Shown: in pieces, positions 25,666 through 37,849 of the stretch
Numbering within the stretch: the stretch's first letter is position 1
Layout: each line of letters begins with the position of its first letter
NCBI GenBank assembly: GCA_040386275.1
Contig: JAZKFU010000008.1
Location: 176,219 to 240,218 of the forward strand
Direction: 5' to 3'
Source: Patescibacteria group bacterium
Lineage (GTDB): Bacteria; Patescibacteriota; Minisyncoccia; Phycocordibacterales; UBA918
Length of the DNA stretch: 64,000 nt
The notes under the pieces: generated by a model
What the model saw: only the letters and a program-made list of their open reading frames with translations
Told to the model about the DNA's origin: nothing
Database searches by the model: none
Translations under genes and position numbers: made by a program

Positions 25666-25981
25666 ATAAGATGAACCCCTGCCAGTGATGGCGGGGGTTT
25701 TTATAGGAGTTTGCTTGCTTAGGGTCCAATGTGGTCACGAGTTACTAAGTATATTTGTTCACTTTGTTTCAAATCTACTAACAGCTCTCGACCCCGACCC
25801 TAGCGGACTTGTCCTGACGGTCACAAATTCGCTGATGCTCATAAGTGCCGCGGGACACAGCTCGTTCGTGACAAAGTCACATCACTCCGCTGTTCAAGTC
25901 CGCCCGCAATGTGCGCAGGCACATTGCTTAAGGTCCACGAACAAAAAATGGCACAACGCAGTGTGCTCATTTTTGTATTCG

Positions 25982-26054
25982 TGGACCCTAGCGGACTTGA
26001 ACCGCTCACCTCTTCCATGCCATGGAAGCGCTCTACCGGATGAGCTAAGGGCCC
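25982..26054 (-). tRNA. tRNA-Ala (anticodon GGC)
   Basis: cloverleaf GGGCCCTTAGCTCATCCGGTAGAGCGCTTCCATGGCATGGAAGAGGTGAGCGGTTCAAGTCCGCTAGGGTCCA; G3:U70 Ala identity pair; 7-nt anticodon loop ATGGCAT. Confidence 0.8.
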
Positions 26055-26102
26055 GAAATTGGACTGGCTGATTATAGCGGTTTGTGTTGATACAAGCAAG
26101 AA

Positions 26103-26137
26103 AAATAAGGATACCCTGCTGGGTATCCTTATTTTTC
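26103..26137. terminator. bidirectional terminator
   Basis: aaggataccc-tgct-gggtatcctt perfect 10-bp stem followed by attttt. Confidence 0.65.
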
Positions 26138-26153
26138 AACTTTTATAAATAGA

Positions 26154-26423
26154 TTAACGTACAATAACTTTGTCACCGACTACTTGGTAGTCGTCAGCGG
26201 ATTCGAGTAACATAACTCCACTGCGCATATGAATGTTTGGAGCAGTTGCAATAGCCGTCTGCCAATCATTTGCAGTAACTGATTTAACATCTCCCGCCGC
26301 ATCTACATAGGCGTACGTAGCCGCTTGTGTAGATTGAGCGTATACAACGAAAGCAAACATCAATACTACAAGTGCGATAATAGGAACGATAACTGGTAGT
26401 ACATAATTTGATAGCGTTTTCAT
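26154..26423 (-). CDS. hypothetical membrane-anchored small protein
   Basis: 89 aa, single N-terminal TM. Confidence 0.4.
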   Translation of the reverse strand: MKTLSNYVLPVIVPIIALVVLMFAFVVYAQSTQAATYAYVDAAGDVKSVTANDWQTAIATAPNIHMRSGVMLLESADDYQVVGDKVIVR

Positions 26424-26575
26424 AGATTTAAATATTATTTAATAGAAATCAGGTCAATACGGATTCAACTATGTGTATTTTGAAACATACTGAAATCATG
26501 CATTGCCCCACAATGTTATTATATTATAATAACAAATATTTGAAAAGACCTTTTATAAATTATTTGTTAATAGCG

Positions 26576-27223
26576 CTAGGCTACCTTTTTCGCTGCTCGT
26601 TTGGCAACCGTTGCCTTTTTACTCACCTTCTTTTTAGCTTTAGCCTTCTCGATTGCCGGGGTAACTTTCTTTGGCTTCCGAGTTTTAACTACAATATCCT
26701 CCCCTGCTTCTTCAACTGACTTAGTACCAACAATCGGTAATGCCTCAACAAGTTTTTCAGACGCTTTAATCAGCGCTAAAATTTGATTTATTTTCTCTTC
26801 TACAACACCAAGTTGCTTAACAAGTAGTTTGTAGTCAGGCGGGACAAACGCAGCGGGACTTGGTCGCTCCATAGTTCGGCCTACCATTTCGTTTGGTGTA
26901 AATCGATCTCGAGAAGTGTTGCTGTTTGTTGGGGCTTCATTTTTTGCAGCGAAACAATCACGACATAGTACGGGCTTCTTTCCATCAGGTCGGAACGGTA
27001 CTTCACATGACTTACCACAGGTAGTACAGGTAGCATTGTATAGAGTCACATCTTTCTTCTCTCGATCATTAGAGAATGATGGTCGGTTGTTGCCAAATGA
27101 AGGGCGTCCAGCACCTTCAAAACGCTTCTTTGGAGCATATTTACCCGCATCACTAAAGGGACGTCCACCAAGGTCTGGTTTGCGATTACGTAAACCGCCT
27201 GGTTCAAAGTTTTTCATATACAA
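26576..27223 (-). CDS. zinc-ribbon protein with R/G-rich N-terminus and Lys-rich histone-H1-like C-terminal tail
   Basis: CTTCGKSCEVPFRPDGKKPVLCRDCF (CxxC-x16-CxxC); C-terminus KAKAKKKVSKKATVAKRAAKKVA. Confidence 0.5.
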   Translation of the reverse strand: MYMKNFEPGGLRNRKPDLGGRPFSDAGKYAPKKRFEGAGRPSFGNNRPSFSNDREKKDVTLYNATCTTCGKSCEVPFRPDGKKPVLCRDCFAAKNEAPTNSNTSRDRFTPNEMVGRTMERPSPAAFVPPDYKLLVKQLGVVEEKINQILALIKASEKLVEALPIVGTKSVEEAGEDIVVKTRKPKKVTPAIEKAKAKKKVSKKATVAKRAAKKVA

Positions 27224-27324
27224 AGATTATATCACGAAAAGCAAATAATTCAACCCCACAGTATGGTGAGATGTTCAGTACGTTTTTACAATCAACGCAG
27301 ACAATATGAGGTGTTTTTTAAAAT

Positions 27325-27425
27325 CGAGCAGATGCGCGACGACAAGTAAAATAATGATGAGCCGTACTCCTTGTACGGTGAATTATTATTTTGCGCAGGC
27401 AACAAAGCAGGTGCCGATTTTTAGA
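27325..27425 (+). repeat. dispersed ~90-nt element, copy B (followed by a partial second copy to about 27490)
   Basis: gatgcgcgacgacaagtaaaataatgatgagccgtactccttgtacggtgaattattattttgcgcaggcaacaaagcaggtgccg. Confidence 0.6.
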
Positions 27426-27432
27426 AACAACG

Positions 27433-28071
27433 CTAGGAGCGACCTTCTTTATCTAGGACAAATCTCACAACTTGGACGATGTAGACGAATATAAACAAAT
27501 AAATAATCGCATCCCCTATCGGCTTCATGTATGTCTCGACAATCGAATAGTCACTTAACGCAAAGTACCCAATACTCATTAAGGCTGTGTTCCAGATAAT
27601 CAATCCCGCAAGTGAATACGCCACAAACTTTTTAAAATTCATCCGCACACTCCCCGCTGGGATAGAAATCACCGAGCGCACACCGGGAATCATCCGGCCG
27701 AAAAATACCGCGGGGATTTCATACTTCACAAAGTAATCTGTCGCCTTATGAAAATCTTTTCCGGAAATCGCAACGTACCCCCCGTACTTTCGAAAAAATT
27801 TCTCTAGCTTTGCCGCCGGTGCAAACCACCCGAGCGCAAACCAAAACAACGTACCCAAAAACGAACCAACACTCGCGGTAATTAGCGCAAGGACAAAGTT
27901 CAGTTCCCCTTTAGCCACCGAGTGGCCCACAAACGGCAATACTACTTCAGACGGAATCGGCGGAAAGATATTTTCTGCCACCATCAAAATAAACACGCCC
28001 CAATACCCATTTTGGGAAATAAAGTTAATTACTGCTTCAGCCATATAGTGGATACAGTATACAAGTCTCAT
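27433..28071 (-). CDS. DedA family membrane protein
   Basis: ENIFPPIPSEVVLPFVGH DedA signature; multi-TM. Confidence 0.7.
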   Translation of the reverse strand: MRLVYCIHYMAEAVINFISQNGYWGVFILMVAENIFPPIPSEVVLPFVGHSVAKGELNFVLALITASVGSFLGTLFWFALGWFAPAAKLEKFFRKYGGYVAISGKDFHKATDYFVKYEIPAVFFGRMIPGVRSVISIPAGSVRMNFKKFVAYSLAGLIIWNTALMSIGYFALSDYSIVETYMKPIGDAIIYLFIFVYIVQVVRFVLDKEGRS

Positions 28072-28397
28072 CCCTATCTACCAAATAACAAGAGAATCAA
28101 TAGACATGCAAAAAGGCCAAGGAGTAATCCCTGGCCTTTTGTTCGATTCAGTTTCTATTCTGTGAAAATGTAAACAAAATCAATTTTGGTTCGCGAGAAT
28201 GCATTCTGCGCGGGTGGTATGGACATAGCCGTACCGATCAATGTAGTACACGTTAGTCTTCTGCATGCTTTTTCTCCTTGGTTATAAAAACCCAAGGAGA
28301 CACCTTTACCTTACATAATATATAGGTCGTTTCAAATCGAAAGAACTGCCTCCTCAGAACTGTATTTAACAACAGTATAGACATTTTTGCAAGCCAA

Positions 28398-28430
28398 AGA
28401 AAACCGCGCCAGTTGTTGGCGCGGGTTATT
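28398..28430 (-). terminator. rho-independent terminator
   Basis: aaccgcgcca-gttgt-tggcgcggtt stem; T-run on the minus strand. Confidence 0.55.
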
Positions 28431-28441
28431 CATAATTATAT

Positions 28442-28762
28442 TTATTTGACCAATCTCAGATGTGCAGGCCCATCTTTGATCACGGCCGTCATTGCCGGTG
28501 GAACCGGATCGATGTACCGTGCCCACTTTTTCACGTGCCCTTGATGGAATTCAGAAATGGCATGCAGACCAGTCAACCTCCAGCCCTCGGCGTAGTCTTG
28601 GGTTTTTTCAAATTCACCGTCGAAGTAATCGCACACACTTTTTTCGCTTGCGCTAGCCGTGGTAAAAATTGTCACCATGTGTGAACGGAGAGGATACTTT
28701 CTTTTATCCGTTTTCTCTTTAACGGTTTTGGCTATTGGTCTCGAAATGGTATATACCGTCAT
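28442..28762 (-). CDS. hypothetical protein (106 aa)
   Basis: ORF with downstream terminator; no domain recognised. Confidence 0.4.
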   Translation of the reverse strand: MTVYTISRPIAKTVKEKTDKRKYPLRSHMVTIFTTASASEKSVCDYFDGEFEKTQDYAEGWRLTGLHAISEFHQGHVKKWARYIDPVPPAMTAVIKDGPAHLRLVK

Positions 28763-28870
28763 ACCCGATCCTTTCCCTTATTAGCAACTTTCTACCGATA
28801 GAGTATCGTGCAGATAATAATTGTCAATCATTGAGGCACTGATGTCTCACTACTGAACAATTACAATACA

Positions 28871-29398
28871 TTAATCATCAGACGTCGGTGCACCAGATAC
28901 TTCTTCCTGCTGGCGCTTTTTTCGTTCTTCCTCATCAGGGTCATCGGTACCCGAAATAGTAGCTACAGCAACCCGACGATTCACGTGTGGAATTCGAGGA
29001 ATGATGATTGATGCAAACGTAGCCACCACGGCTATTTGGTAGTATCCAAACCCAATCGCCATACCAATAGCGCCCGCAAACCAAATACTCGCAGCTGTGG
29101 TCAAATTACGCACGGTGAGGCCATCTTTTAAAATCAACCCAGCTCCTAGGAACCCGATACCCGACACAACTTGGGCCGCAATACGAGATTGTGACGCCGG
29201 GTCAACCGTCATGGACATAAAAGTAAACAACATCGCCCCAGAAATCACAAACGAGTGCGTACTAATCCCAGCATCCTTCCCCCGCGACTCCCGTTCAATC
29301 CCAATCAAAGTCCCCAAAACAATAGCAATAAACAAATCAAATGAAAAAGTCACCGTAGTCGGGTCGATATAAATAAGCGAAGACAAATTTTCAAACAT
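28871..29398 (-). CDS. MgtC/SapB family membrane protein
   Basis: LGTLIGIERESRGKDAGISTH matches the MgtC N-terminal signature. Confidence 0.75.
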   Translation of the reverse strand: MFENLSSLIYIDPTTVTFSFDLFIAIVLGTLIGIERESRGKDAGISTHSFVISGAMLFTFMSMTVDPASQSRIAAQVVSGIGFLGAGLILKDGLTVRNLTTAASIWFAGAIGMAIGFGYYQIAVVATFASIIIPRIPHVNRRVAVATISGTDDPDEEERKKRQQEEVSGAPTSDD

Positions 29399-29477
29399 AG
29401 GGAGAATTTATAGCAGAAAATTTAAGTCAGATCAAATATTATTAAATAATACTTATATATTTAAAACTCGAATTTAA

Positions 29478-30113
29478 CTAAATAAACAAATGAAAGTCGT
29501 GGTGTAAGGTTATTGCTGTATTATTTAAATAAACTTTTTTTAAATTTAAATTAATTTTTAAAACACCAACTGTTTTCTTTTTATGACAATTTGGACACAA
29601 TGCCCATAAGTTAGAGATTTCTTCCCCTCCACCATTTGCTTTTGGAATAATATGATCAATATCAATACTATACCGATTTTTGCCATTTCCATCTTTCCAT
29701 TCTATGGACCATCCACACACCTGACAAGAATAATCTTCTAATTTAGAAACAATCTTTTTTTGATTTCTATTCTCAATTCTAATTTTTACAATATGTTTCT
29801 TATGTGATGGTGCAGTTGTAATAAAAGCTTGAGCTTTTTTTATAAGTGCAGCTTTATTTCGTACTGTAATTTTTTCACCTTCAAATGTTTCAAGATCATC
29901 ATATTCAGTAAGTGCATACACTCCTATGTCAACACGCTTAAAATTAAAACCTCGGTAGAGCTCTCTATATAACACTCCACGAATACCCGCTTTCCAATCT
30001 TTTGCGTCCATTGCGTCTGGATAAAATTTTGTGATGTGATTGTAAATATAAGTTAGTGGAGCAGCCCCTCCATTTTCTTTTATAACTTTAACAATAGCTT
30101 GTATTTTAGTCAT
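29478..30113 (-). CDS. HNH endonuclease with N-terminal winged-helix (HARE-HTH-like) DNA-binding domain
   Basis: C-terminal CQVCGW...DIDHIIPKANGGGEEISNLWALCPNCH HNH motif; N-terminal ...IRGVLYRE...RVDIGVYALTE. Confidence 0.7.
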   Translation of the reverse strand: MTKIQAIVKVIKENGGAAPLTYIYNHITKFYPDAMDAKDWKAGIRGVLYRELYRGFNFKRVDIGVYALTEYDDLETFEGEKITVRNKAALIKKAQAFITTAPSHKKHIVKIRIENRNQKKIVSKLEDYSCQVCGWSIEWKDGNGKNRYSIDIDHIIPKANGGGEEISNLWALCPNCHKKKTVGVLKINLNLKKVYLNNTAITLHHDFHLFI

Positions 30114-30121
30114 AAGTTTAA

Positions 30122-31048
30122 TTACTTTATTAAATCAACAAATCTAATTACTTTATTTATTTTCCAATCAATAATTTTTGAATAAATACCGTTATGTTTG
30201 TGCATTCTATTGTAAATACACCCCTCGCACTCATATTCCTCGATTTTATCTAACTCCTCAGTCTGTTCACCAAACAACTTAAATTGCCCAGGTATTGCCT
30301 CAACTTCATGAAAACAAGTCATAGGAACTACATAACGCAATCCATCCATCTGAATAATGTTCCAACTAATTATCTCAGCAAATTCCTCCTGAACCTTCAG
30401 TGATGGTTTCTGGGAGAACTTCGTCTCATAGTAATCAATGAGTGTATAGAGTAGATTTTCTCGAGCAATCAATACATTGTCGCCTTGCCACTCATACCCA
30501 TAACTTGCCTTGAACGCCTCCCGCGCCCAATTTAGCCAATCTTTCTTGTTGTCACAGTAACGAGAAACCACTTTCAACTTCCGGTCTAAAAAACCTACTC
30601 GCCCTGAAATACTGATGAGTGCTCCATGCGCAGTGGGGTTGTATCTAGTGACTATGAATGGCGCTTCTCCACAAGTAATCTCAAGTTTTAGTTCACGGAC
30701 ATACTCCTGCCAATTTTTTTTGTTTGGTTGAGAGCTTTCTAGTGCCTTGTTCATCTGCTCAATAGTCTTGAGTGGTGTAAAGACTTCGGCTTTCTCTTTT
30801 GTTCGATGTCGTTGTTCTTCCAGACTCTTTGCAGCACGAGGCTGAATGAGTAGTCGATACATACCCGTAACCAACTCTGGCTTTATTTGTTTATCCGGGG
30901 CAAATGCTCTCCCATATTGTCCATATGAATCAGTTGCCCAGATAATATTCTTTTTTGTTGTATGGTCGGTGAGAAGAATATCAAGCAAACAACCCTGGCG
31001 ACGAAGGGTGCTTTCCTTGATGTCGATGTCATATGAGGTCGCCACCAT
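30122..31048 (-). CDS. hypothetical protein coupled to the upstream 1323-aa fusion gene
   Basis: 308 aa; its ATG lies 4 nt after the stop of the upstream gene; contains an AEVFTP motif resembling MTase motif X and a possible degenerate CGEAPF; function not assignable. Confidence 0.4.
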   Translation of the reverse strand: MVATSYDIDIKESTLRRQGCLLDILLTDHTTKKNIIWATDSYGQYGRAFAPDKQIKPELVTGMYRLLIQPRAAKSLEEQRHRTKEKAEVFTPLKTIEQMNKALESSQPNKKNWQEYVRELKLEITCGEAPFIVTRYNPTAHGALISISGRVGFLDRKLKVVSRYCDNKKDWLNWAREAFKASYGYEWQGDNVLIARENLLYTLIDYYETKFSQKPSLKVQEEFAEIISWNIIQMDGLRYVVPMTCFHEVEAIPGQFKLFGEQTEELDKIEEYECEGCIYNRMHKHNGIYSKIIDWKINKVIRFVDLIK

Positions 31049-31051
31049 AGT

Positions 31052-34000
31052 TTATGTCATCAGCTTTACGTTTGTTTCTATGAAGTCAATTTCAGTCTTA
31101 TCTAAAGAGTACTTCTTGTATAACTGCTGATCAATTTCAGCAACTGTTTTTGACCAGTCGATATCTGATTTCTTAGTAAAATCTTGCATTGGAACATTAG
31201 ACCAAACACTTTTTGAATTATCTTGTGTTACTTTGAGGGTACCCAGAAGTGAACGATTGAACTTTGTCTTTAGATATTTAATACAGTTTTGCGCTTCACT
31301 ATTTGTTTCGAAAGAACCAATTTGTAAAAATGAGTAAGTGCAGCCTGTTCGAGGCCCAGCAACAATTGGTGTACTCAGAACTTCTCCTAACGTACCGCTG
31401 CCATTTGATTTTGCTAACAGTACTTTCCACTTATTTAACTTAGAGTCATTTACTATAGATTCACTAATGTAACGTTCCGTTCGCTTATTACCCTTTTCAA
31501 GACCTAAAATTTTTATATCCGTATCAGAATTCTGATTTTTTGCGAACACTTTTGGAAACCTTTCAAAATAATTTGGAGCAATACGTAAATCATTTGGATA
31601 TTTTTTGTCCAACACAACATTTAATTTAGTTTCCCCTCTTGGTCCTACAATTGAGCTAAATCTATTACTACCTATTTTTGATAAGACACTCCTCAATTCT
31701 TTATACGGAACAAACGTACCGCCCAGTCCACCAGTTGGTTTATTTTTATTCCACACCGTTATACAAACACCACCCTTAATGTCGACACCGGAGAAGATCT
31801 TTTGTGAATTTGGTTCGTACAAAGCAATGCTTAGATGTGGATCATTAAGCATTTGTCTATTCCACTCTTTAGGGGTAGCACCTGCATTGAAAAGAAAACG
31901 AGCAGGATGAATCAGTGAGACATAGTCAGGACCAAGACTTTTCGCTGCATCAAAAAACAGGTGGTAGACCGGCGTTGCAAAATTTGTCTCAGTATTTATT
32001 TGGTAGGGAGGATTCCCTACCACTGCTTTGAATTTCATATCATTTGGTAGCTTAAATTTTTCTAGTAATTCATTTTTGAGTTCATAGTCTGTAAAACAAT
32101 CTTTCTGCTGTAGCTTTTGCACCAAGTCATTGATATAGACAATGTTCGGCTTGTAACTCTCGTTATAACCAGCGAGCGTACGCTTGGTTATACTCTGTGC
32201 CATCGGGCTTTTACAAAGTACGTATATATGGTTACTGAGTACGTCTGCCCATATTTTATGAGCTTCTCGCTCCTCTAGCTTTTTACTCGCAACAAGCTTC
32301 CGTGAATATACATTGTACGCCGCTAGTAGCGGATACAGACCTGATTTAGAGTTAATTTCAAGTATTTTAGCATCTTCCTGACTCCATACGCTAGTGTCGA
32401 CGCCCTTACTTACCCAAATTGGCTTTCCAGTCTTTTTATCCACTTCACCACTGCTAAAGTTGTGACCACCAAATGCAAGAGTGAGGTGTTTATTAACTAC
32501 ATTCCATGGAGTAAGGACTGTTTCCTTGTCAGGGTTTTTAAAGGTGCTGAAAATATCTGCAATAGCCTGTACTCGTTCAGTTGGTAATAAATCATCACAA
32601 TCAAATGCTTTAGCACGAATGCTATGAGCTACTCCCTTAAAGACATCTTCGTCATAGTATTTTGTAAAATCACGGAACTGAGCTTTTGTCAGCCCGGCAG
32701 GCATAAACTCTTGCCATGATTCTTCATCCACTAAATTAATGAACTTACTGAGAGTAATGTCTTCCCGAATCGAAACATTAGCTCCATATACCAGCATCGG
32801 CATACGAATACTAACTGCCCGTAAGATACTTACTGCTGTTTGCTTTTGCCTACGTGCTTCTTTGAGTTTATTTAACGCTTCTTTCTGCTCCTCTGTCAGT
32901 ACTTCACCTTTTTTCTTTTTGCGTTCCGCTTCTTCCGCTTGCTTAGTCTTGAGATCATCCATTCCTAACTCATTGATCTTTATCTCATTTACACGCTCGG
33001 TTGATGATTTACCAACTAATTCTTTTAGCTGATTGAATTTCGCTATATCTAACTCATCAAGTTTCAATAGCTCATCGTTATAAAGTTTAGGATCATCAAA
33101 ACCATTTCGACTCACGCGCTCTATGATGGCTTTTTTAAGCTGACCCAGCATCATACTTACGTCATATAGCTTCATACTGCCACCTTCAGCAGCCAAAATC
33201 GGACAGAAATTAAGGAACCGCTCCATCGCTTCTTTCTGCTCGGGTGTATTTATCTTGCCAGATTTGTGGTTAAGCTCTATCGCTTCAGCAACAAGCTTTA
33301 GTGTTCGGTCAGGTGCAAAATCAAATACATAGCCCTGGGTCTTTATCTTCCCTTCAATTTTGGCTGGTGTCTGACAACGAAACGCTGTTTGCAAATACGT
33401 AGTAGCGGAATTAGTATCCGACATCATAAATACAGCGGTCCACTCTTTGATAGAGGCTCCTGTAGTGAGCCTCTGTCCTGTGAGAGTAATGGTGAAGTCG
33501 TTGTTCTTGATAGCTGTCGTTACACGATTTTTTGCATCACTGTCCTCCTCATCGTCATGATTGTTACCAGAAATATTTACGATACCAAACTTGCCGAAAA
33601 CGGAATGTTTCTTTAATAGATTCTCCATCGCCTCAATTGTTTTTACCCGATTAGGCAACAACCATAGCGAGTGTTTATTGAAATTACGATACTCTTCAGT
33701 CGCATAGGGAAACTTTGTTGGCAGCGTGTTGTTTACCAGAAGATCTAAAAACTTCTTTACCATTGACTCGTGCACAAACCGAGCTGGCGAATCAGCATCA
33801 TCTTCTGCAATCCTAAAAAACTCATGAAATTTAAATGCTCCGTCAAGTGAATCATGGAAACCTTCACCAAAAGTACCGATATGATTCGCATAGGTATCAA
33901 TATCGTATGTAAAGATATTTAACGCAGGTAACTCTGCATATGGATTTGGAACACCTGGATTTTGTTCGTCCCAGTTTAGCTTTGCTTCTTGCTCCATTAC

Positions 34001-35023
34001 ATAGTCCCAGGTGTAAATGTCCTCCTCTTCATGTTTGTGCAGAATATTAAATGGTGTACCAGACAGTTGTAATGTAAAGTTGGTTGGGATTTTAGAAAAT
34101 GTGGTATCGCCTAGATTACTTTGTGTCCCCTCGTGTGCTTCATCTACAATGACCATATCCCATATGGTGTCGAAAACTTGATCGTTCTTATCGAAACCCC
34201 TTGCTTCGGACCCTGAAGATTCATCAGCAACTACCCGCTTCGAGAGTCGCAGATCCTGAATTGAAGCAAAGTACACAAATGATTTACCGCTTTCCAACAA
34301 AACACCAATATTTTCACCTTTTGACTTTGAAGCATATTCATACCCAGCCCCAGCTAAAACCTTGTTGAAATCATCGTACCAGTCAACACTTACACTGGGT
34401 CGATGGGTAACGATAAGTACTCGCTTCATCTTAATTTCCTTAGCAACTTGCATGGCAGCAGATGTTTTGCCGAAACGCATCTTAGCATTCCAAAGAAAGT
34501 GTTTTCGCTTTTTCGCTATTGCTGTGCTTGTCTTTCTGATAGCCTCAAGCTGATTAGGACGGAAAGAAAATTCTGCTGTGGATTTAGCACTTTTTTCTTT
34601 AGTCGATAGAGCTGTTCTCCCCTCCTTTACTGCTTGAATTGCATTTTTAGCAACTGCCAAATTAACTTCAAACCATTCTGACCGAGTATTTCTTACACTC
34701 TCAGTCTTACGCTCATAACCTGATCGAATAAGTAGCTGGTGAACTTCATGATCTGAAAAACAATCACCCTCATTCATAACTGCAAGTTCTACATATTCAA
34801 GCTTATACGGAATATCAGCAGTTTTAGTTTGAGCTTTAATTCTTTCGTGTGCAGCGATTTCGATATCTTGCTGTGTAGGTTCGAGTGAACTTGTAGTCGC
34901 TTTACCAATTTTCAGGCGTCCTTCATGGGACCTGAGAGGAATTGAGTATACGTAAACAATACCGTATGAAAAAGTTTCATGAATATTATTAATAACAGCA
35001 TGATTCGGTACCCCTTTAGACAT
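31052..35023 (-). CDS. large restriction/defence fusion protein: GIY-YIG/T5orf172-like N-terminus, SF2 DEAH helicase (ResIII-like) and N6-adenine DNA methyltransferase-like domain (NPPY)
   Basis: GIVYVY...LKIGKATT at residues 21-44; Walker A RFGKTSAAM at 183-191; DEAH at 294-297 (nt 34133-34144 verified); motif VI QTAFRCQ at about 545; coiled-coil K/E-rich linker; VVGNPPYQ at 1001-1008 (nt 32003-32014 verified); downstream NGSGTLG at about 1207. Confidence 0.7.
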   Translation of the reverse strand: MSKGVPNHAVINNIHETFSYGIVYVYSIPLRSHEGRLKIGKATTSSLEPTQQDIEIAAHERIKAQTKTADIPYKLEYVELAVMNEGDCFSDHEVHQLLIRSGYERKTESVRNTRSEWFEVNLAVAKNAIQAVKEGRTALSTKEKSAKSTAEFSFRPNQLEAIRKTSTAIAKKRKHFLWNAKMRFGKTSAAMQVAKEIKMKRVLIVTHRPSVSVDWYDDFNKVLAGAGYEYASKSKGENIGVLLESGKSFVYFASIQDLRLSKRVVADESSGSEARGFDKNDQVFDTIWDMVIVDEAHEGTQSNLGDTTFSKIPTNFTLQLSGTPFNILHKHEEEDIYTWDYVMEQEAKLNWDEQNPGVPNPYAELPALNIFTYDIDTYANHIGTFGEGFHDSLDGAFKFHEFFRIAEDDADSPARFVHESMVKKFLDLLVNNTLPTKFPYATEEYRNFNKHSLWLLPNRVKTIEAMENLLKKHSVFGKFGIVNISGNNHDDEEDSDAKNRVTTAIKNNDFTITLTGQRLTTGASIKEWTAVFMMSDTNSATTYLQTAFRCQTPAKIEGKIKTQGYVFDFAPDRTLKLVAEAIELNHKSGKINTPEQKEAMERFLNFCPILAAEGGSMKLYDVSMMLGQLKKAIIERVSRNGFDDPKLYNDELLKLDELDIAKFNQLKELVGKSSTERVNEIKINELGMDDLKTKQAEEAERKKKKGEVLTEEQKEALNKLKEARRQKQTAVSILRAVSIRMPMLVYGANVSIREDITLSKFINLVDEESWQEFMPAGLTKAQFRDFTKYYDEDVFKGVAHSIRAKAFDCDDLLPTERVQAIADIFSTFKNPDKETVLTPWNVVNKHLTLAFGGHNFSSGEVDKKTGKPIWVSKGVDTSVWSQEDAKILEINSKSGLYPLLAAYNVYSRKLVASKKLEEREAHKIWADVLSNHIYVLCKSPMAQSITKRTLAGYNESYKPNIVYINDLVQKLQQKDCFTDYELKNELLEKFKLPNDMKFKAVVGNPPYQINTETNFATPVYHLFFDAAKSLGPDYVSLIHPARFLFNAGATPKEWNRQMLNDPHLSIALYEPNSQKIFSGVDIKGGVCITVWNKNKPTGGLGGTFVPYKELRSVLSKIGSNRFSSIVGPRGETKLNVVLDKKYPNDLRIAPNYFERFPKVFAKNQNSDTDIKILGLEKGNKRTERYISESIVNDSKLNKWKVLLAKSNGSGTLGEVLSTPIVAGPRTGCTYSFLQIGSFETNSEAQNCIKYLKTKFNRSLLGTLKVTQDNSKSVWSNVPMQDFTKKSDIDWSKTVAEIDQQLYKKYSLDKTEIDFIETNVKLMT

Positions 35024-35054
35024 ACAGAAAGAGTAGCATTTTTAACCCTTTTTC

Positions 35055-35345
35055 TCAATTTATGACTTTGTATTGCAATAGTAGATAAAGAGTAGCCACA
35101 TTCTGCATAATAATCAACGGTATCCCTACCTGAAAGTACCATTTTCGGGTTTTGTGGCGAAGCAGGATCATTGCGAGGTAAATCCCTAGGCTACCGCCAG
35201 CAGCGGCTAGGAAGAATAATACGCCTTCTGGGGTACGTTCTATGTTGCCGCCAGCTATGGATTTACGTTTGTCGTTAGCCATGACTAAAAAGGCAAAGAT
35301 GTTAATGACGGCCAGGATTGCTAGCAATATATTTTCTATAGCCAT
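35055..35345 (-). CDS. DUF1294-like small membrane protein
   Basis: ANDKRKSIAGGNIERTPEGVLFFLAAAGGSLGIYLAMILLRHKTRKWYF resembles the DUF1294 family. Confidence 0.5.
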   Translation of the reverse strand: MAIENILLAILAVINIFAFLVMANDKRKSIAGGNIERTPEGVLFFLAAAGGSLGIYLAMILLRHKTRKWYFQVGIPLIIMQNVATLYLLLQYKVIN

Positions 35346-35348
35346 AGA

Positions 35349-35906
35349 TTAGGACAATTTCACACTATCGCTCACTAGGGGCTTTAGGTATTGCTGGTAT
35401 CTGGCGTCAGTTAGGGTTAGCTTGTAGTTGATGCGGTTGATTATTATTTTATAGGTTTTGCCGGCTTTACCGCGGATAGTGGTCTGGATGCGGAAGGTGG
35501 CGGTTTTGCCGGCGGGAATTTTGGCGTAGAGGAGGGTACCGAGAGTTACTTGGGAGACGCCTTCTCCACGGACGGTGACGTCAGCTGTGGTGATGACGCC
35601 TTCACCAGTGCCTTCGATTTGATACATGAAGCCAGTTGGTTTTTTGCCAGAGGCTATGGAGAGCGGGAGAAATACATCGGATTTTTTGGCAGTGATTTCT
35701 ACTGTAATCAGGAACTTTCCGAGTGCTTTGTCTTTCTCCCCTTCTACTTTGACTCGTTCAAAGCGAGCTTGGTCTTTGCCTTGCTTAACCGTGATGTTTT
35801 CATCTTTTCCTTCAGCTTTGTTGGCTATTACAAGCTCGTCTTGTAGGCGCTTTAGTTGTATTGCTAGGTCTTTTAAAAATTGTTTACCCTGAGGTGTTTT
35901 TGCCAT
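35349..35906 (-). CDS. hypothetical protein
   Basis: ORF in the AT-rich island; likely start at the internal Met (MAKTPQGKQ). Confidence 0.35.
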   Translation of the reverse strand: MAKTPQGKQFLKDLAIQLKRLQDELVIANKAEGKDENITVKQGKDQARFERVKVEGEKDKALGKFLITVEITAKKSDVFLPLSIASGKKPTGFMYQIEGTGEGVITTADVTVRGEGVSQVTLGTLLYAKIPAGKTATFRIQTTIRGKAGKTYKIIINRINYKLTLTDARYQQYLKPLVSDSVKLS

Positions 35907-35995
35907 ATCTATAATTATAGGATATAGACTAATGGGTATTTGGGAGTTTGTACCATAAAAAAACGTCACCCCAGGGTATGGGATGACGTCAGTGG

Positions 35996-36973
35996 TTAGG
36001 ACTGAAGGACTAATTCTCGGTGGATCATTTGATTCACTACCAACTGCTTACTGAGCGCGTATTTGCCACACTGGGCATACAGCTGGGCTATACGAGGTAA
36101 ATCGTCCTTTAGATGTTCGTACCCATCAGTAACTTCGGCTAGTTCGTTTAGCTTGTCATGCCGTCGTGTCGCCGAAGTGATCCCCTCTGGCACTACTTCA
36201 TTACGCTCTAGCCAATCTTGTACTCGATTTATACAAGACTGGTAGTCTGCGAGCGTTTTGTTGACGAGAGATGCTCCATCAATCATATACAGCGTGTAGT
36301 TCGGAAAAGAACGTTCAAACGCTGTGATGATGAATTCTAACCGTGCGGTGGGCAGTTGGTATAACCAACGGTTCCCGGACGGGTTCGTGAGCTGTACCTG
36401 TTGTATCAAGAGCCGACGGTTCTCCATCACGGAAAAACTTACGGTCATGACATGCTTTTGACGATGATAGACAAGGAACGCAAACACGCCGTCGATGAAG
36501 GTGCGTGCGTACTTGGAATAGCCAAATTGATTGTAGCCAGTAGTGTAGTCCAACCGCAGTTCAAACTCAGGCGGTAAACCAAGAGAGTACGAGCGTATGC
36601 CGTTGTAGACATCCACGAGTTCGTTCCAAGTACCTTTTCCCACGCCCCAACGCCACCATGAGCTTTGGATTTTTCGAACTACTTCGTGGTTTGGATCCTT
36701 TTCAAAGACCTCATCAACTGTCCGATCCATGATTTTGGCACTCGAGAACCTCATTTTGCAGAGATCCTCAAAGGTAAAGTCAGACAGCTCATTAAGTGGC
36801 AGTTCATGGAACTGACTATAAAAGTCAAAGGAAGAATAATAGGCTTCGATGTACTGCTTACTCCTGGCCAACTTTTCAGTGACATTTTCAATTGACCGCA
36901 CTGGGTTGGTGACATACTCTTCACGAACCTTGTGGAGGTCTGAGGTGAGTACGGAAAGTTCTAGACCAATCAT
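35996..36973 (-). CDS. hypothetical protein (island-encoded)
   Basis: ORF; likely start MIGLELSV; divergent from the PD-(D/E)xK gene. Confidence 0.4.
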   Translation of the reverse strand: MIGLELSVLTSDLHKVREEYVTNPVRSIENVTEKLARSKQYIEAYYSSFDFYSQFHELPLNELSDFTFEDLCKMRFSSAKIMDRTVDEVFEKDPNHEVVRKIQSSWWRWGVGKGTWNELVDVYNGIRSYSLGLPPEFELRLDYTTGYNQFGYSKYARTFIDGVFAFLVYHRQKHVMTVSFSVMENRRLLIQQVQLTNPSGNRWLYQLPTARLEFIITAFERSFPNYTLYMIDGASLVNKTLADYQSCINRVQDWLERNEVVPEGITSATRRHDKLNELAEVTDGYEHLKDDLPRIAQLYAQCGKYALSKQLVVNQMIHRELVLQS

Positions 36974-37091
36974 GGCATTCTCCTGGGCTAAGTTTCTGGG
37001 GTGGATTATACTATGGATTTGGTATTTGTATAGAGTTGAAGTTTGTACCCTTTTGAAGCATTTTAAAATTTTGATTGGTATAATTGGATTC

Positions 37092-37568
37092 ATGAATAAT
37101 ATACATTTCACCCATGAGTTGGTTAAAGGTAAGATTGCTGAATTAATATTTGCCCAAATGATTCGTAGTACTGGAGTGCACACCATCCTTGAATTTGGAT
37201 ATGAAAAAACATTACCTTCTCTTGCTCAAATGCATCCTCGCAGTGAGTCTTCTGCTGAAACAATGGAGATCATTAAACGAGCTCCAGATTTTACAATTAT
37301 CAACCATAAATCAAAAGAGGTACATTTGATTGAAGTGAAGTATATGAAAGAAGTAAAGCCGGCAGTAGTGATGCGTGCTGCTCGTAATATTGAGAAGTCA
37401 TGGAAACAAGCGGCTTTATTTGTTGCTTCACCGACCGGTTTTTACTTTGACCAAATCGATAAAATTATAAAAAACAAAGGACAAATTTCTGAATTTAAAC
37501 ATAATAATATTACGCCTAAAACGCAGAAGGAGTATTTGAAGTTATTGAATGAGTTTATTGCGATTTAG
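37092..37568 (+). CDS. PD-(D/E)xK nuclease-fold protein
   Basis: PDFTIINHKSKEVHLIEVKY fits the D...(E/D)xK core; start at MNNIHF rather than the long upstream extension that overlaps the divergent gene. Confidence 0.45.
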   Translation: MNNIHFTHELVKGKIAELIFAQMIRSTGVHTILEFGYEKTLPSLAQMHPRSESSAETMEIIKRAPDFTIINHKSKEVHLIEVKYMKEVKPAVVMRAARNIEKSWKQAALFVASPTGFYFDQIDKIIKNKGQISEFKHNNITPKTQKEYLKLLNEFIAI

Positions 37569-37654
37569 AGCAGATTCGAGAAGATTCGAACCTTACAGGT
37601 TCAGTACCCGTTGTCGCTAGATTAGTGCGCTTCGCTTCTAATCTAGCTGGCAAC

Positions 37655-37706
37655 AGCTTCGAATCTTCACGCAATGTGTCGTAACACATTGCTTCGGGTC
37701 CACCAT
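37655..37706 (+). repeat. inverted duplicate of the tRNA-Ala(TGC) 3' end (T-arm and acceptor) interrupted by a 9-bp-stem hairpin
   Basis: ttcgaatcttc-[acgcaatgtgtcgtaacacattgcttc]-gggtccacca; the corresponding tRNA sequence is TTCGAATCTTCTCGGGTCCACCA. Confidence 0.55.
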
Positions 37707-37730
37707 AGCCTGCAAGCTTTGCTTGCTAAA

Positions 37731-37768
37731 TCAAAAAACAACCACTAGTAAGTGGTTGTTTTTTGATT
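37731..37768. terminator. bidirectional terminator downstream of tRNA-Ala(TGC)
   Basis: aacaaccact-agta-agtggttgtt 10-bp stem with A-run and T-run flanks. Confidence 0.65.
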
Positions 37769-37773
37769 TGCTA

Positions 37774-37849
37774 TGGTGGACCCGAGAAGATTCGAACTCC
37801 CTGCCTCTTCAGTGCAAATGAAGCGCTCTACCAAGTGAGCTACGGGCCC
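37774..37849 (-). tRNA. tRNA-Ala (anticodon TGC), CCA encoded
   Basis: GGGCCCGTAGCTCACTTGGTAGAGCGCTTCATTTGCACTGAAGAGGCAGGGAGTTCGAATCTTCTCGGGTCCACCA; G3:U70; anticodon loop TTTGCAC. Confidence 0.85.

What the first reader, a model, noticed from the sequence alone, without database searches (positions are those of the whole stretch)
29478..37568. AT-rich accessory island of about 8 kb beside tRNA-Ala(TGC) encoding an apparent multi-gene defence module
From about 29.4 to 37.6 kb the composition turns markedly AT-rich, with long A/T runs in the intergenic spacers, and the gene content switches from housekeeping to defence-like. The genes, in transcription order on the minus strand, are:
- the 1323-aa fusion gene;
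- a 308-aa ORF whose ATG lies 4 nt after the fusion gene's stop;
- a winged-helix HNH endonuclease starting 9 nt after the 308-aa ORF.
Upstream of these lie a DUF1294-like membrane protein, two hypothetical proteins and a divergent PD-(D/E)xK protein. The island abuts tRNA-Ala(TGC) and tRNA-derived repeats, which is typical of horizontally acquired islands. The tightly coupled three-gene core (fusion enzyme, 308-aa protein, HNH) may act as one system.
Basis: partly seen in the sequence, partly recalled or inferred. Interest (0 to 1): 0.8.

Follow-up and report, generated by a model that had tools for sequence, protein, structure and literature searches.

The report
Two-gene helicase restriction-modification system, plus HNH
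A 5.6-kb AT-rich insertion in a Patescibacteria genome carries a two-protein, helicase-driven restriction-modification enzyme whose DNA methylase domain is shared between the two proteins, next to an unrelated stand-alone HNH nuclease; this is a catalogued but unstudied kind of phage defence, not a new three-gene system.

Summary
The AT-rich, accessory part is only 29.4-35.05 kb: GC 0.382 against 0.432, the lowest 5.6-kb stretch in the window. The 35-37.6 kb part has average GC, and its DUF1294 and 206-aa genes are conserved beside this tRNA in relatives that lack the block.

The real unit is two genes, not three.
- The 1323-aa protein has a T5orf172 (GIY-YIG-type) nuclease, an SF2 helicase, a degenerate methylase N-half (N'), an NPPY methylase C-half and a hypervariable target-recognition domain.
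- The 308-aa protein is an AdoMet-binding methylase N-half.

The 308-aa gene sits next to the helicase/methylase genes in 74 of 80 other genomes, in at least five fused or split gene layouts. The 308-aa protein and the fusion's C-terminus together tile single-chain homologs. One such homolog models confidently as a CamA/M.TaqI-like N6-adenine methyltransferase.

PADLOC/REBASE profiles already hold both proteins (Type IIG enzyme; Type II methyltransferase). I read the pair as a Type ISP-like, ATP-dependent R-M enzyme.

The HNH gene is far more AT-rich (GC 0.31). It is absent from all 80 loci and stands alone in the two other genomes checked, so it is probably a separate McrA-like nuclease.

Why there are two N-halves for one C-half is unexplained.

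The parts
31052..35023 (-). 1323-aa R-M fusion protein: nuclease, helicase, N', methylase C-half and TRD
   Evidence: ORF. Pfam: T5orf172, ResIII and Eco57I. PADLOC: REase_MTase_IIG, 3e-54. Thirty homologs keep catalytic residues invariant: K38/G40/R61/D91/H95/E116, G185-K186, D294-E295-H297, S321-G322-T323, Q545/R549 and P1006-Y1007-Q1008, with N1004-P1005 nearly invariant.
34628..34963 (-). T5orf172 (GIY-YIG superfamily) nuclease domain, aa 21-132
   Evidence: Pfam PF10544, 1.2e-4 and 22.9 bits against a cut-off of 20. Invariant KIG, R, D, H and E residues. T5orf172 is a GIY-YIG-type endonuclease domain in phage ICP1 Gp88 (PMC8263062).
33164..34603 (-). SF2 helicase/translocase core, aa ~141-620
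   Evidence: Pfam ResIII 2.9e-17 and SWI2_SNF2. PHROG DNA helicase 1e-26. Walker A GKT, DEAH, SGT and Q..R motifs are invariant. This region is the best conserved, at 77% identity among close homologs.
32099..32662 (-). N': degenerate methyltransferase N-half-like domain, aa ~788-975 (ETVLTP, EINSKSGLY, IYVLCKSP, YINDLV)
   Evidence: hhalign to the C-terminal 190 aa of separate helicase proteins: prob 99.7, E 3.6e-27. Those C-termini against the N-half of single-chain MTases: prob 84, E 7.6e-6, with the motif II acid deleted. T838, P839 and K893 are invariant and G895 nearly invariant.
31754..32044 (-). Methyltransferase C-half with motif IV (FKAVVGNPPYQ), aa 994-1090
   Evidence: Pfam Eco57I 4.5e-22. 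Tiles residues 297 onward of the single-chain homolog P0163. hhalign of fusion 780-1323 to single-chain MTases: E 1e-103.
31229..31753 (-). Hypervariable target-recognition domain, aa ~1091-1265
   Evidence: Identity among 9 close homologs falls to 0.19-0.40 here, against 0.75-0.9 in the helicase (per-segment values).
31055..31228 (-). Conserved C-terminal tail, aa 1266-1323
   Evidence: 65% identity among close homologs and conserved across the whole family. PADLOC's best stretch is 1192-1322.
30122..31048 (-). 308-aa AdoMet-binding methyltransferase N-half (N''): motifs X AEVFTP, I LEITCGEAPF, II SYGYE, III QMDGL
   Evidence: PADLOC MTase_II 2.8e-91. No Pfam hit. More than 8000 homologs and 1601 clusters at 50% identity. 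Tiles P0163 residues 4-296, with beta1-beta3 of the model. Single-chain natural fusions exist.
29478..30113 (-). 211-aa HARE-HTH-like + HNH nuclease: an adjacent gene but a separate module
   Evidence: Pfam HNH 5.8e-14. PDB hits to the EcoKMcrA, TagI and ScoMcrA HNH domains. Found in 0 of 80 R-M loci. GC 0.308. Solitary in two other genomes. The N-terminal domain is shared with HNH_2 proteins that give weak HARE-HTH hits.
29399..35054 (.). AT-rich accessory block (the real extent of the 'island')
   Evidence: GC 0.382, essentially the window minimum. Absent after DUF1294 or the 206-aa gene in relatives L084, L091 and L094/L095.
26055..37773 (.). Larger variable region between tRNA-Ala(ggc) and tRNA-Ala(tgc)
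   Evidence: The two tRNAs are 104 nt apart in relative L096. In L087 the tRNA is followed directly by the AcrB-like gene.

Best explanation
Window 30122-35023(-) encodes a two-polypeptide, ATP-dependent restriction-modification enzyme. It belongs to a widespread family that databases list but nobody has studied biochemically.

The large subunit carries, in order:
- a T5orf172/GIY-YIG-type nuclease;
- an SF2 helicase-like motor;
- a long linker;
- a degenerate methylase N-half (N');
- the NPPY catalytic half of a gamma-class N6-adenine methyltransferase;
- a hypervariable target-recognition domain.

The 308-aa subunit is the AdoMet-binding N-terminal half (motifs X-III) of the same methyltransferase fold.

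Proposed mechanism (inferred):
1. The 308-aa protein docks on the NPPY half to form the active methyltransferase, which marks host copies of an asymmetric site.
2. At unmethylated sites the helicase motor hydrolyses ATP and moves along the DNA.
3. The T5orf172 nuclease then cuts, as in Type ISP and Type III enzymes.

The HNH gene downstream is a separately acquired McrA-like (probably Type IV) nuclease sharing the strand and perhaps the transcript. The whole 5.6-kb block is an insertion in a variable region between two tRNA-Ala genes.
For: Shown:
- Domains.
- Catalytic residues of the nuclease and ATPase and the PYQ of the NPPY motif are invariant in 30 homologs down to 22% identity, N1004-P1005 nearly so.
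- The 308-aa gene is adjacent to the helicase/methylase genes in 74 of 80 loci from CPR, Firmicutes, Bacteroidota, Treponema and plasmids. Five of the six exceptions are truncated contigs.
- Natural rearrangements: separate NPPY+TRD genes start exactly at 'MKFDYVIGNPPYQ'. Single-chain forms join a 308-like half to NPPY+TRD (L073/L069, phage FNU4, S. mitis, Macrococcus).
- A jumbo phage carries only the two methylase halves.
- The 308-aa protein and fusion residues 994-1323 tile the single-chain homolog P0163 end to end, with the junction just before beta4.
- The P0163 model has pLDDT 87.7. It matches CamA, M.BseCI, PglX, MmeI and M.TaqI along its whole length, with E down to 2e-17.
- The 308-aa protein keeps the motif I Glu, the acid at the end of beta2 and the motif III Asp.
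- The TRD is hypervariable.
- The block is absent in relatives and has deviant GC.

Inferred: trans-complementation, the translocation-and-cleavage mechanism, and anti-phage function.
Against: - There is no experimental data for any member that I could find.
- The fusion has its own N-half-like segment directly before NPPY. It may therefore be a complete methylase in cis, leaving the 308-aa protein with another role.
- The analogous DnmA-YeeB-YeeC cluster of B. subtilis showed no restriction or phage defence (PMC9973331).
- There is no sequence-level match to solved Type ISP enzymes.
- The structural evidence comes from a 37-43% identical homolog, not from the window proteins. The 308-aa protein modelled alone gave pLDDT 57.7.
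- The T5orf172 Pfam hit is only just above threshold (22.9 against 20 bits).
Confidence: 0.72

Rival explanations
1. One reading: the fusion, the 308-aa protein and the HNH nuclease form one obligate three-component defence system.
For: The three genes share a strand with 3-nt and 8-nt spacers, and no terminator-like site was found between them. In E. faecium plasmids the pair is likewise followed by another nuclease-type gene, DUF262.
Against: HNH homologs occur in 0 of 80 loci holding the pair. The genes downstream of the pair differ from locus to locus. HNH has GC 0.308, against 0.39-0.40 for the pair. Only 42 homologs were found, and the two full-length ones checked stand alone next to unrelated genes.
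Confidence: 0.05
2. The fusion is a self-sufficient Type ISP/IIG-like enzyme, with its own N' half completing the methylase in cis. The 308-aa half-methylase would then be a regulatory or assembly subunit, for example an AdoMet sensor or a competitor for the NPPY half that sets the balance between methylation and restriction.
For: N' lies directly upstream of NPPY and carries motif X/I/III-like elements. The Pfam Eco57I profile aligns continuously across 931-1077. In L041-type loci a 589-aa methylase has its own FTP and motif I-like elements as well as NPPY, yet a 308-aa homolog is still present.
Against: N' lacks the conserved acid at the end of beta2. In S. mitis-type systems N' ends a helicase protein that has no free C-half to pair with. 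The 308-aa family keeps all AdoMet-binding residues invariant, and it is the half found covalently joined to NPPY in hundreds of single-chain enzymes.
Confidence: 0.2
3. A decayed or non-restricting cluster: the methylase acts as an orphan epigenetic enzyme, and the helicase-nuclease part no longer defends, as proposed for B. subtilis DnmA-YeeB-YeeC.
For: PMC9973331 found no phage protection or restriction by the analogous triad. CPR genomes are reduced.
Against: Both ORFs are full length, and every residue that is invariant for nuclease, ATPase or methylase function in the family is present. The helicase region is the most strongly conserved part. The TRD is diversifying, which is typical of active R-M. 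The V. crassostreae homologs are reported to defend (cited in PMC9973331).
Confidence: 0.1
4. The 308-aa protein is the restriction endonuclease of the system, as some RefSeq records name it.
For: In E. faecium and Lactobacillales plasmids the gene is named 'restriction endonuclease'.
Against: It is homologous over its full length to the N-terminal, beta1-beta3 half of single-chain methyltransferases. It carries methylase motifs X-III. The PADLOC hit is to MTase_II. No nuclease family was hit in Pfam, NCBIfam or PDB.
Confidence: 0.02

Closest known systems
[quoted passage not shown]
   Same: The same N-to-C order in one polypeptide: nuclease, SF2 helicase-like ATPase, linker, gamma-class N6-adenine methyltransferase, TRD. 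Both are expected to act at asymmetric sites with ATP-driven communication. Smith et al. 2012 (PMC3553950) already noted uncharacterised relatives with helicase domains and GIY-YIG nucleases.
   Different: The nuclease is T5orf172/GIY-YIG-type rather than Mrr. There is no detectable sequence match to the solved LlaGI/LlaBIII chains. An obligatory second protein supplies a methylase N-half, and the large chain carries a second, degenerate N-half.
DnmA-YeeB-YeeC cluster (B. subtilis; V. crassostreae)
   Same: The same three activities occur together: a gamma-class m6A methyltransferase, an SF2 helicase and a T5orf172 protein, in a low-GC acquired region (PMC9973331).
   Different: There the three are separate genes and the methylase is MmeI-like and complete. 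Here the nuclease and helicase are fused, the methylase is Eco57I-type and divided, and a 308-aa half-methylase is added.
REBASE/PADLOC 'Type IIG restriction enzyme-methyltransferase' (PDLC03626) with 'Type II methyltransferase' (PDLC03390, PDLC03375)
   Same: The window proteins match these profiles at 3e-54 and 2.8e-91, so annotation pipelines would file the pair as a Type IIG R-M system.
   Different: Type IIG enzymes as characterised (Eco57I, MmeI, BpuSI) have no NTP-dependent motor, whereas this family has an intact SF2 ATPase. The label is a prediction, not a characterisation.
CamA / M.TaqI / M.BseCI gamma-class N6-adenine methyltransferases
   Same: The single-chain homolog of the two window pieces models as this fold over its whole length. 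Motifs run in the order X, I, II, III, IV (NPPY), then the TRD.
   Different: Those enzymes are single chains. Here the fold is cut between beta3 and beta4 into two proteins. Sequence identity to the solved structures is only 10-14%, and sequence profiles do not reach them.
EcoKMcrA / TagI / ScoMcrA (Type IV HNH restriction enzymes) - for the HNH gene only
   Same: The C-terminal HNH domain matches these in PDB, at 1.7e-6 to 2.3e-4, and matches PADLOC mREase_IV. The layout is an N-terminal DNA-reader domain followed by HNH.
   Different: The N-terminal domain is a short HARE-HTH-like winged helix (weak evidence), not the McrA, SRA or SBD readers. Dependence on DNA modification is untested.
Naturally split DNA methyltransferases (M.AquI, M.EcoHK31I alpha/beta) - from my own knowledge, not checked here
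   Same: Two polypeptides assemble into one methyltransferase.
   Different: Those are C5-cytosine enzymes split near the TRD. Here an N6-adenine enzyme is split inside the Rossmann-like sheet, and the C-half is fused to a helicase-nuclease.

Membership tests
Type ISP R-M | Single polypeptide ordered nuclease, SF2 ATPase, methyltransferase, TRD | tested here: met
   Pfam domain order, invariant motifs and a hypervariable C-terminal region.
Type ISP R-M | Mrr-family PD-(D/E)xK nuclease at the N-terminus | tested here: not met
   The N-terminus is T5orf172 (GIY-YIG clan), with no Mrr or PD-(D/E)xK hit.
Type ISP R-M | Self-contained enzyme that needs no second subunit | tested here: not met
   A 308-aa half-methylase gene accompanies the family in 74 of 80 loci.
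Type ISP R-M | Sequence homology to LlaGI/LlaBIII | tested here: not met
   phmmer and a profile search of PDB sequences found no Type ISP chain.
Type ISP R-M | ATP-driven translocation and collision-dependent cleavage | not testable with these tools
   Needs biochemistry.
Type IIG R-M (REBASE/PADLOC) | Match to the REase_MTase_IIG profile, with nuclease and methylase in one chain | tested here: met
   PDLC03626 at 3e-54, in 4 stretches.
Type IIG R-M (REBASE/PADLOC) | No NTP-dependent motor domain | tested here: not met
   ResIII/SF2 core with invariant Walker A and DEAH motifs.
Type III R-M | Mod is a beta-class methylase; Res is an SF2 helicase with a C-terminal PD-(D/E)xK nuclease | tested here: not met
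   The motif order is gamma-class (X-I-II-III-IV-TRD), and the nuclease is an N-terminal T5orf172.
DnmA-YeeB-YeeC-type cluster | Co-occurrence of an m6A gamma-methylase, an SF2 helicase and a T5orf172 domain | tested here: met
   All three are present. The cluster is described in PMC9973331.
DnmA-YeeB-YeeC-type cluster | MmeI-family methylase and three separate genes | tested here: not met
   Only Eco57I was hit in Pfam, with no MmeI family, and the nuclease and helicase are fused. Direct comparison with YeeA/B/C was not possible.
Gamma-class N6-adenine DNA methyltransferase | Motifs X, I, II, III and IV (NPPY) in that order on a class-I MTase fold, followed by a TRD | tested here: met
   The motifs lie across the two proteins. 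They tile a homolog whose model matches CamA and M.TaqI. This is met only by the two proteins together.
tRNA-integrated genomic island | Deviant composition and absence from close relatives | tested here: met
   GC 0.382, essentially the window minimum. Absent in L084, L087, L091 and L094-L096.
tRNA-integrated genomic island | Direct repeat of the tRNA 3' end at the far boundary, with the island abutting the tRNA | tested here: not met
   The repeats lie within about 200 nt of the tRNA. Between the tRNA and the block lie 2.7 kb of average-GC DNA, including the conserved DUF1294 and 206-aa genes.
tRNA-integrated genomic island | Integrase or other mobility gene | tested here: not met
   None was found in 26-38 kb. 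Integrases do flank the system in Firmicutes/Bacteroidota loci.
Type IV McrA-like restriction enzyme (HNH gene) | HNH beta-beta-alpha-metal nuclease | tested here: met
   Pfam HNH at 5.8e-14. PDB hits 6ghc, 6ghs and 5zmm.
Type IV McrA-like restriction enzyme (HNH gene) | N-terminal domain that reads modified DNA | tested here: inconclusive
   No Pfam hit for the N-terminus itself. Homologs sharing it give HARE-HTH hits at E 0.003-0.03, below threshold.

The most novel reading that the evidence does not exclude
The family uses a divided methyltransferase fold as a switch. One NPPY+TRD half can be completed by either of two N-halves. The AdoMet-binding 308-aa half would give a methylating enzyme. 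The degenerate N' half is tethered to the helicase-nuclease and lacks the ribose-binding acid, so it would give a site-bound but non-methylating, restriction-competent state. On this reading, which N-half docks decides between modification and restriction. That would explain why evolution joins the C-half to either N-half but never loses one.
Probability: 0.15. Interest if true: 0.7.

Novelty: new variant of a known kind. Interest (0 to 1): 0.4.

Why it matters
If the model holds, this is an ATP-dependent, Type ISP-like class of R-M enzyme with two unusual features: a GIY-YIG-type nuclease, and a methyltransferase catalytic domain assembled from two polypeptides. The family spans about 1600 protein clusters at 50% identity. 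It occurs in CPR bacteria, gut Firmicutes and Bacteroidota, enterococcal plasmids and phages.

It would offer a natural example of a Rossmann-like methylase split between beta3 and beta4. It also raises a testable puzzle, two N-halves for one C-half, that bears on how such enzymes choose between methylating and cutting.

For genome annotation, the work shows three things:
- 'restriction endonuclease' and 'subunit M' labels on the 308-aa family should read 'methyltransferase N-terminal half';
- the HNH gene should be called separately;
- the island is 5.6 kb, not 8 kb.

For CPR biology it adds one more acquired defence locus, which is not surprising in itself.

Tried and rejected
- AF2 of the 308-aa protein alone, with 45 sequences at 68-90% identity, gave pLDDT 57.7. 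That is too poor for a fold search, so I modelled a single-chain homolog instead.
- Sequence and profile searches of PDB found nothing useful with the 308-aa protein, the fusion, a 30-sequence fusion profile or a single-chain profile.
- NCBIfam gave no family for either R-M protein.
- My first reading was a simple split: the fusion lacks any N-half. I revised it when the helicase proteins of the 2- and 3-gene versions, and the fusion itself, turned out to hold an N-half-like domain N'.
- tmRNA or a known ncRNA as the source of the tRNA-like repeats: ARAGORN and Rfam found nothing.
- att-site reading of the repeats: rejected on position.
- MANTIS preprint (10.64898/2026.09.23.753747), listed by the search: it could not be opened. 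It was absent from the results of the search that required 'T5orf172', and one search counted no 'GIY-YIG' in it. Its title says 'dual ATPase' and its abstract 'BREX-related'. I therefore did not equate it with this one-ATPase system, but I could not exclude a relation.
- The promoter/terminator scan gave fewer promoter-like sites than shuffles and no clear operon boundaries, apart from a hairpin after the 396-aa ORF.
- The 239-aa ORF as a PD-(D/E)xK nuclease: only a sub-threshold TnsA-like hit, E 0.049.

Full report
**Observation**

- HNH, 29478-30113(-);
- a 308-aa ORF, 30122-31048(-);
- a 1323-aa ORF, 31052-35023(-);
- DUF1294, 35055-35345(-);
- 206-aa and 396-aa ORFs;
- a 239-aa ORF on the + strand, which overlaps the 396-aa ORF by 338 nt.

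ARAGORN and Rfam confirm tRNA-Ala(tgc) at 37774-37849(-) and a second tRNA-Ala(ggc) at 25981-26054(-). NCBI names the 308-aa protein's exact match as coming from a Patescibacteria-group MAG, on a 282-kb contig.

The AT-richness is real but narrower than claimed. The stretch 29.45-35.05 kb has GC 0.382, against 0.432 for the window. It is essentially the lowest 5.6-kb stretch of the 64 kb, about 2.9 SD below the mean. By contrast, 35.05-37.77 kb has GC 0.431. Within the block, the HNH gene stands apart at GC 0.308 and GC3 0.184, against 0.39-0.40 for the other two genes.

**Is it an island?**

I scanned metagenomes with the neighbouring D-Ala-D-Ala ligase and retrieved relatives at 59-82% identity. 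All keep the order ...-Ddl-p249-tRNA-Ala(tgc). What follows the tRNA varies:
- In L096 the two tRNA-Ala genes are 104 nt apart and are followed by the w22885/AcrB-like block.
- In L087 the tRNA is followed directly by the AcrB-like gene.
- In L084 (the closest relative), L091 and L094/L095, the 206-aa and DUF1294 genes follow the tRNA at 53-75% identity, but no fusion, 308-aa or HNH gene is present.

In the window the two tRNAs are 11.7 kb apart. The 26.05-37.77 kb interval is therefore a variable region. Within it, the three AT-rich genes are a further insertion beside genes that are conserved in the lineage.

No integrase or transposase lies in the interval.

The 'tRNA-derived repeats' are exact 15-16-nt copies or complements of the tRNA 3' part, within about 200 nt of each tRNA-Ala. 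They sit with a perfect 19-bp hairpin. Related sequence follows the tRNA in relatives. They do not bracket the block and match no Rfam family.

**What the genes are**

The 1323-aa protein has these features:
- Pfam finds T5orf172 (aa 21-132), ResIII/SF2 helicase (152-325) and Eco57I methylase (931-1077).
- PADLOC's REBASE-derived profile 'Type IIG restriction enzyme-methyltransferase' hits it at 3e-54.
- In an alignment of 30 homologs down to 22% identity, these residues are invariant: the T5orf172 KIG/R/D/H/E residues; Walker A GK; DEAH; SGT; the motif VI Q..R; and PYQ of the NPPYQ motif. The N-P of that motif and G895 are nearly invariant.
- T5orf172 is a GIY-YIG-superfamily endonuclease domain (PMC8263062).
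- Among nine close homologs the helicase is about 77% identical, but residues 1081-1200 drop to 19-40%. That is the signature of a diversifying target-recognition domain.

The 308-aa protein has no Pfam, NCBIfam or PDB match. It does hit a PADLOC 'Type II methyltransferase' profile at 2.8e-91. It has more than 8000 close homologs and 1601 clusters at 50% identity.

**Co-occurrence**

A scan of one genome per species with the 308-aa protein gave 80 loci.
- In 74 of them, tblastn finds the helicase/methylase partner directly adjacent.
- Five of the other six are truncated contigs.
- The HNH protein is found in none.

Gene layouts differ between loci:
- fusion then 308 (CPR, as in the window);
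- 308 then fusion (Faecalibacterium; E. faecium plasmids, where an HTH gene precedes the pair and DUF262 follows);
- 308, then a 344-aa NPPY+TRD gene starting 'MKFDYVIGNPPYQ', then a 1110-aa helicase protein;
- 308, then a 589-aa methylase, then a helicase;
- single-chain 620-650-aa methylases (a 308-like half joined to NPPY+TRD) followed by a T5orf172-helicase gene, in S. mitis and Macrococcus.

Phages carry methylase-only versions. Fusobacterium phage FNU4 has a single chain. Tenacibaculum phage PTm1 has the two halves as separate genes with no helicase.

**The 308-aa protein is a methyltransferase half**

Its conserved motifs read as motif X (AEVFTP), motif I (LEITCGEAPF), motif II (SYGYE) and motif III (QMDGL).

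In an alignment with single-chain homologs, the 308-aa protein covers residues 4-296 of P0163 (42% identity). Fusion residues 994-1323 cover residues 297-648 (37% identity).

The AF2 model of P0163 is confident, with pLDDT 87.7 and pTM 0.85. Foldseek matches it along its full length to CamA (E 2e-17), M.BseCI, PglX, MmeI and M.TaqI, all gamma-class N6-adenine methyltransferases.

In the model:
- beta1 to beta3 belong to the 308-like part. E123 lies in beta1, E186 at the end of beta2 and D235 after beta3.
- beta4, with NPPY, is the first element of the fusion-like part.

The 308-aa protein modelled alone is poor, at pLDDT 57.7, as might be expected for half a domain, though its alignment was also shallow.

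The reading of E123, E186 and D235 as AdoMet-binding residues rests on general knowledge of class-I methyltransferases, not on a test here.

**A complication**

The fusion also has its own N-half-like segment, N' (residues ~788-975: ETVLTP, EINSKSGLY, IYVLCKSP, YINDLV), directly upstream of NPPY.
- It is homologous to the C-terminal ~190 aa of the separate helicase proteins (hhalign prob 99.7, E 3.6e-27). Those proteins end right after motif III.
- Those N' C-termini are a distant paralog of the 308-type half (prob 84, E 7.6e-6). They have a 9-residue deletion that removes the acid at the end of beta2.

So every layout has two N-halves and one NPPY+TRD half. The C-half is covalently joined to the 308-type half, to N', or to neither.

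I favour the 308-aa protein as the catalytic AdoMet-binding partner, for two reasons. Its binding residues are invariant, and it is the half fused to NPPY in the single-chain enzymes. A cis-complete fusion with a regulatory 308-aa subunit is not excluded.

**Mechanism**

This part is inferred. The two proteins assemble. The TRD reads an asymmetric site, and the reconstituted methylase marks host DNA. On unmodified sites the SF2 motor hydrolyses ATP, and the T5orf172 nuclease cleaves, by analogy with Type ISP and Type III enzymes.

Smith et al. (PMC3553950) already mentioned uncharacterised relatives with helicase domains and GIY-YIG nucleases.

The analogous DnmA-YeeB-YeeC triad did not defend in B. 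subtilis, but is reported to defend in V. crassostreae (PMC9973331). I found no paper describing this family or its divided methylase. One preprint, on MANTIS, could not be opened.

**The HNH gene**

- It has only 42 homologs.
- The two full-length relatives checked stand alone among unrelated genes.
- Its HNH domain matches EcoKMcrA, TagI and ScoMcrA and PADLOC's Type IV profiles.
- Its N-terminal ~80 aa recur in front of other HNH types. In those homologs it gives sub-threshold HARE-HTH hits.

It is best read as a separately acquired, possibly modification-dependent nuclease that happens to sit 8 nt downstream of the pair.

**Verdict**

The finding is a real, acquired defence locus. It is a two-gene R-M system of a catalogued but unstudied family, plus an independent HNH nuclease, in a 5.6-kb block. 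It is not an 8-kb, three-gene novel module. The divided methylase with two alternative N-halves is the one feature worth following up.

Noticed in passing
window 37570-37773 and 25713-25980 (- strand, downstream of each tRNA-Ala): A structured element follows both tRNA-Ala genes. It has a perfect 19-bp hairpin (37728-37769), a 16-nt exact reverse complement of the tRNA 3' end (37694-37709 against 37770-37785), a second hairpin (GCAATGTGT/ACACATTGC) and a 15-nt direct copy of the T-arm 206 nt away. Relatives share a conserved block, GGGGTCGAGAACACTTAGTAGATT...CTTAGTGATTCGTGACC, after this tRNA. There is no Rfam or tmRNA match.
   Followed up: partly
window 25981-26054 and 37774-37849; L096 12038-12290: tRNA-Ala(tgc) and tRNA-Ala(ggc) are 104 nt apart in relative L096 but 11.7 kb apart in the window. 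The space between them is a hot spot of variable gene content in this lineage.
   Followed up: yes
L056 11088-11510; L061, L063, L065, L066 (e.g. L065 6872-7619): In several Bacteroides/Lachnospiraceae loci, a HEPN gene is inserted between the 308-like gene and the NPPY+TRD gene. In L061-L066 it comes with a nucleotidyltransferase (MNT-type) gene and a 270-aa unknown. This looks like a toxin-antitoxin-like pair nested inside the R-M operon.
   Followed up: partly
L082 (Tenacibaculum phage PTm1) 5573-8005; L083 (Fusobacterium phage FNU4) ~5950-7872: Phages carry the methylase of this family without the helicase-nuclease. PTm1 has two half-genes separated by an HTH gene. FNU4 has a single chain whose annotated start (6232) cuts off the conserved N-terminal part, which is in frame upstream.
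   Followed up: partly
L002 13370-13882: A 47%-identical homolog of the window's 239-aa (+) ORF lies about 2.5 kb downstream of the R-M pair in another CPR-like genome. The window protein has an APDF...IEVKY motif and a sub-threshold TnsA-like hit. It may be a recurrent neighbour of these systems.
   Followed up: no
window 36849-37186: The 239-aa (+) and 396-aa (-) ORFs overlap by 338 nt. Internal starts, MNNIHF... at about 37092 and MIGLEL... at about 36973, would remove the overlap. The 396-aa protein matches no family.
   Followed up: partly
window 35962-35990 (- strand): A strong terminator-like hairpin (12-bp stem plus a T-run) lies right after the 396-aa ORF and overlaps the called GTG start of the 206-aa ORF. 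The 206-aa gene probably starts at the later ATG (MAKTPQGK).
   Followed up: no
L081 (E. faecium plasmid pK195-6b-A) 6699-14180: Conjugative enterococcal plasmids carry the same system in the order HTH regulator, 308-like gene (named 'restriction endonuclease'), 1412-aa fusion, DUF262 protein, unknown. As in the window, a second nuclease-type gene sits downstream, but of a different family.
   Followed up: partly
L001, L002, L011, L018 record titles: Several loci whose R-M proteins are 60-79% identical to the window's are labelled 'uncultured Gammaproteobacteria' MAGs, while the rest of that group are Patescibacteria. This is either mis-binning or recent transfer.
   Followed up: no
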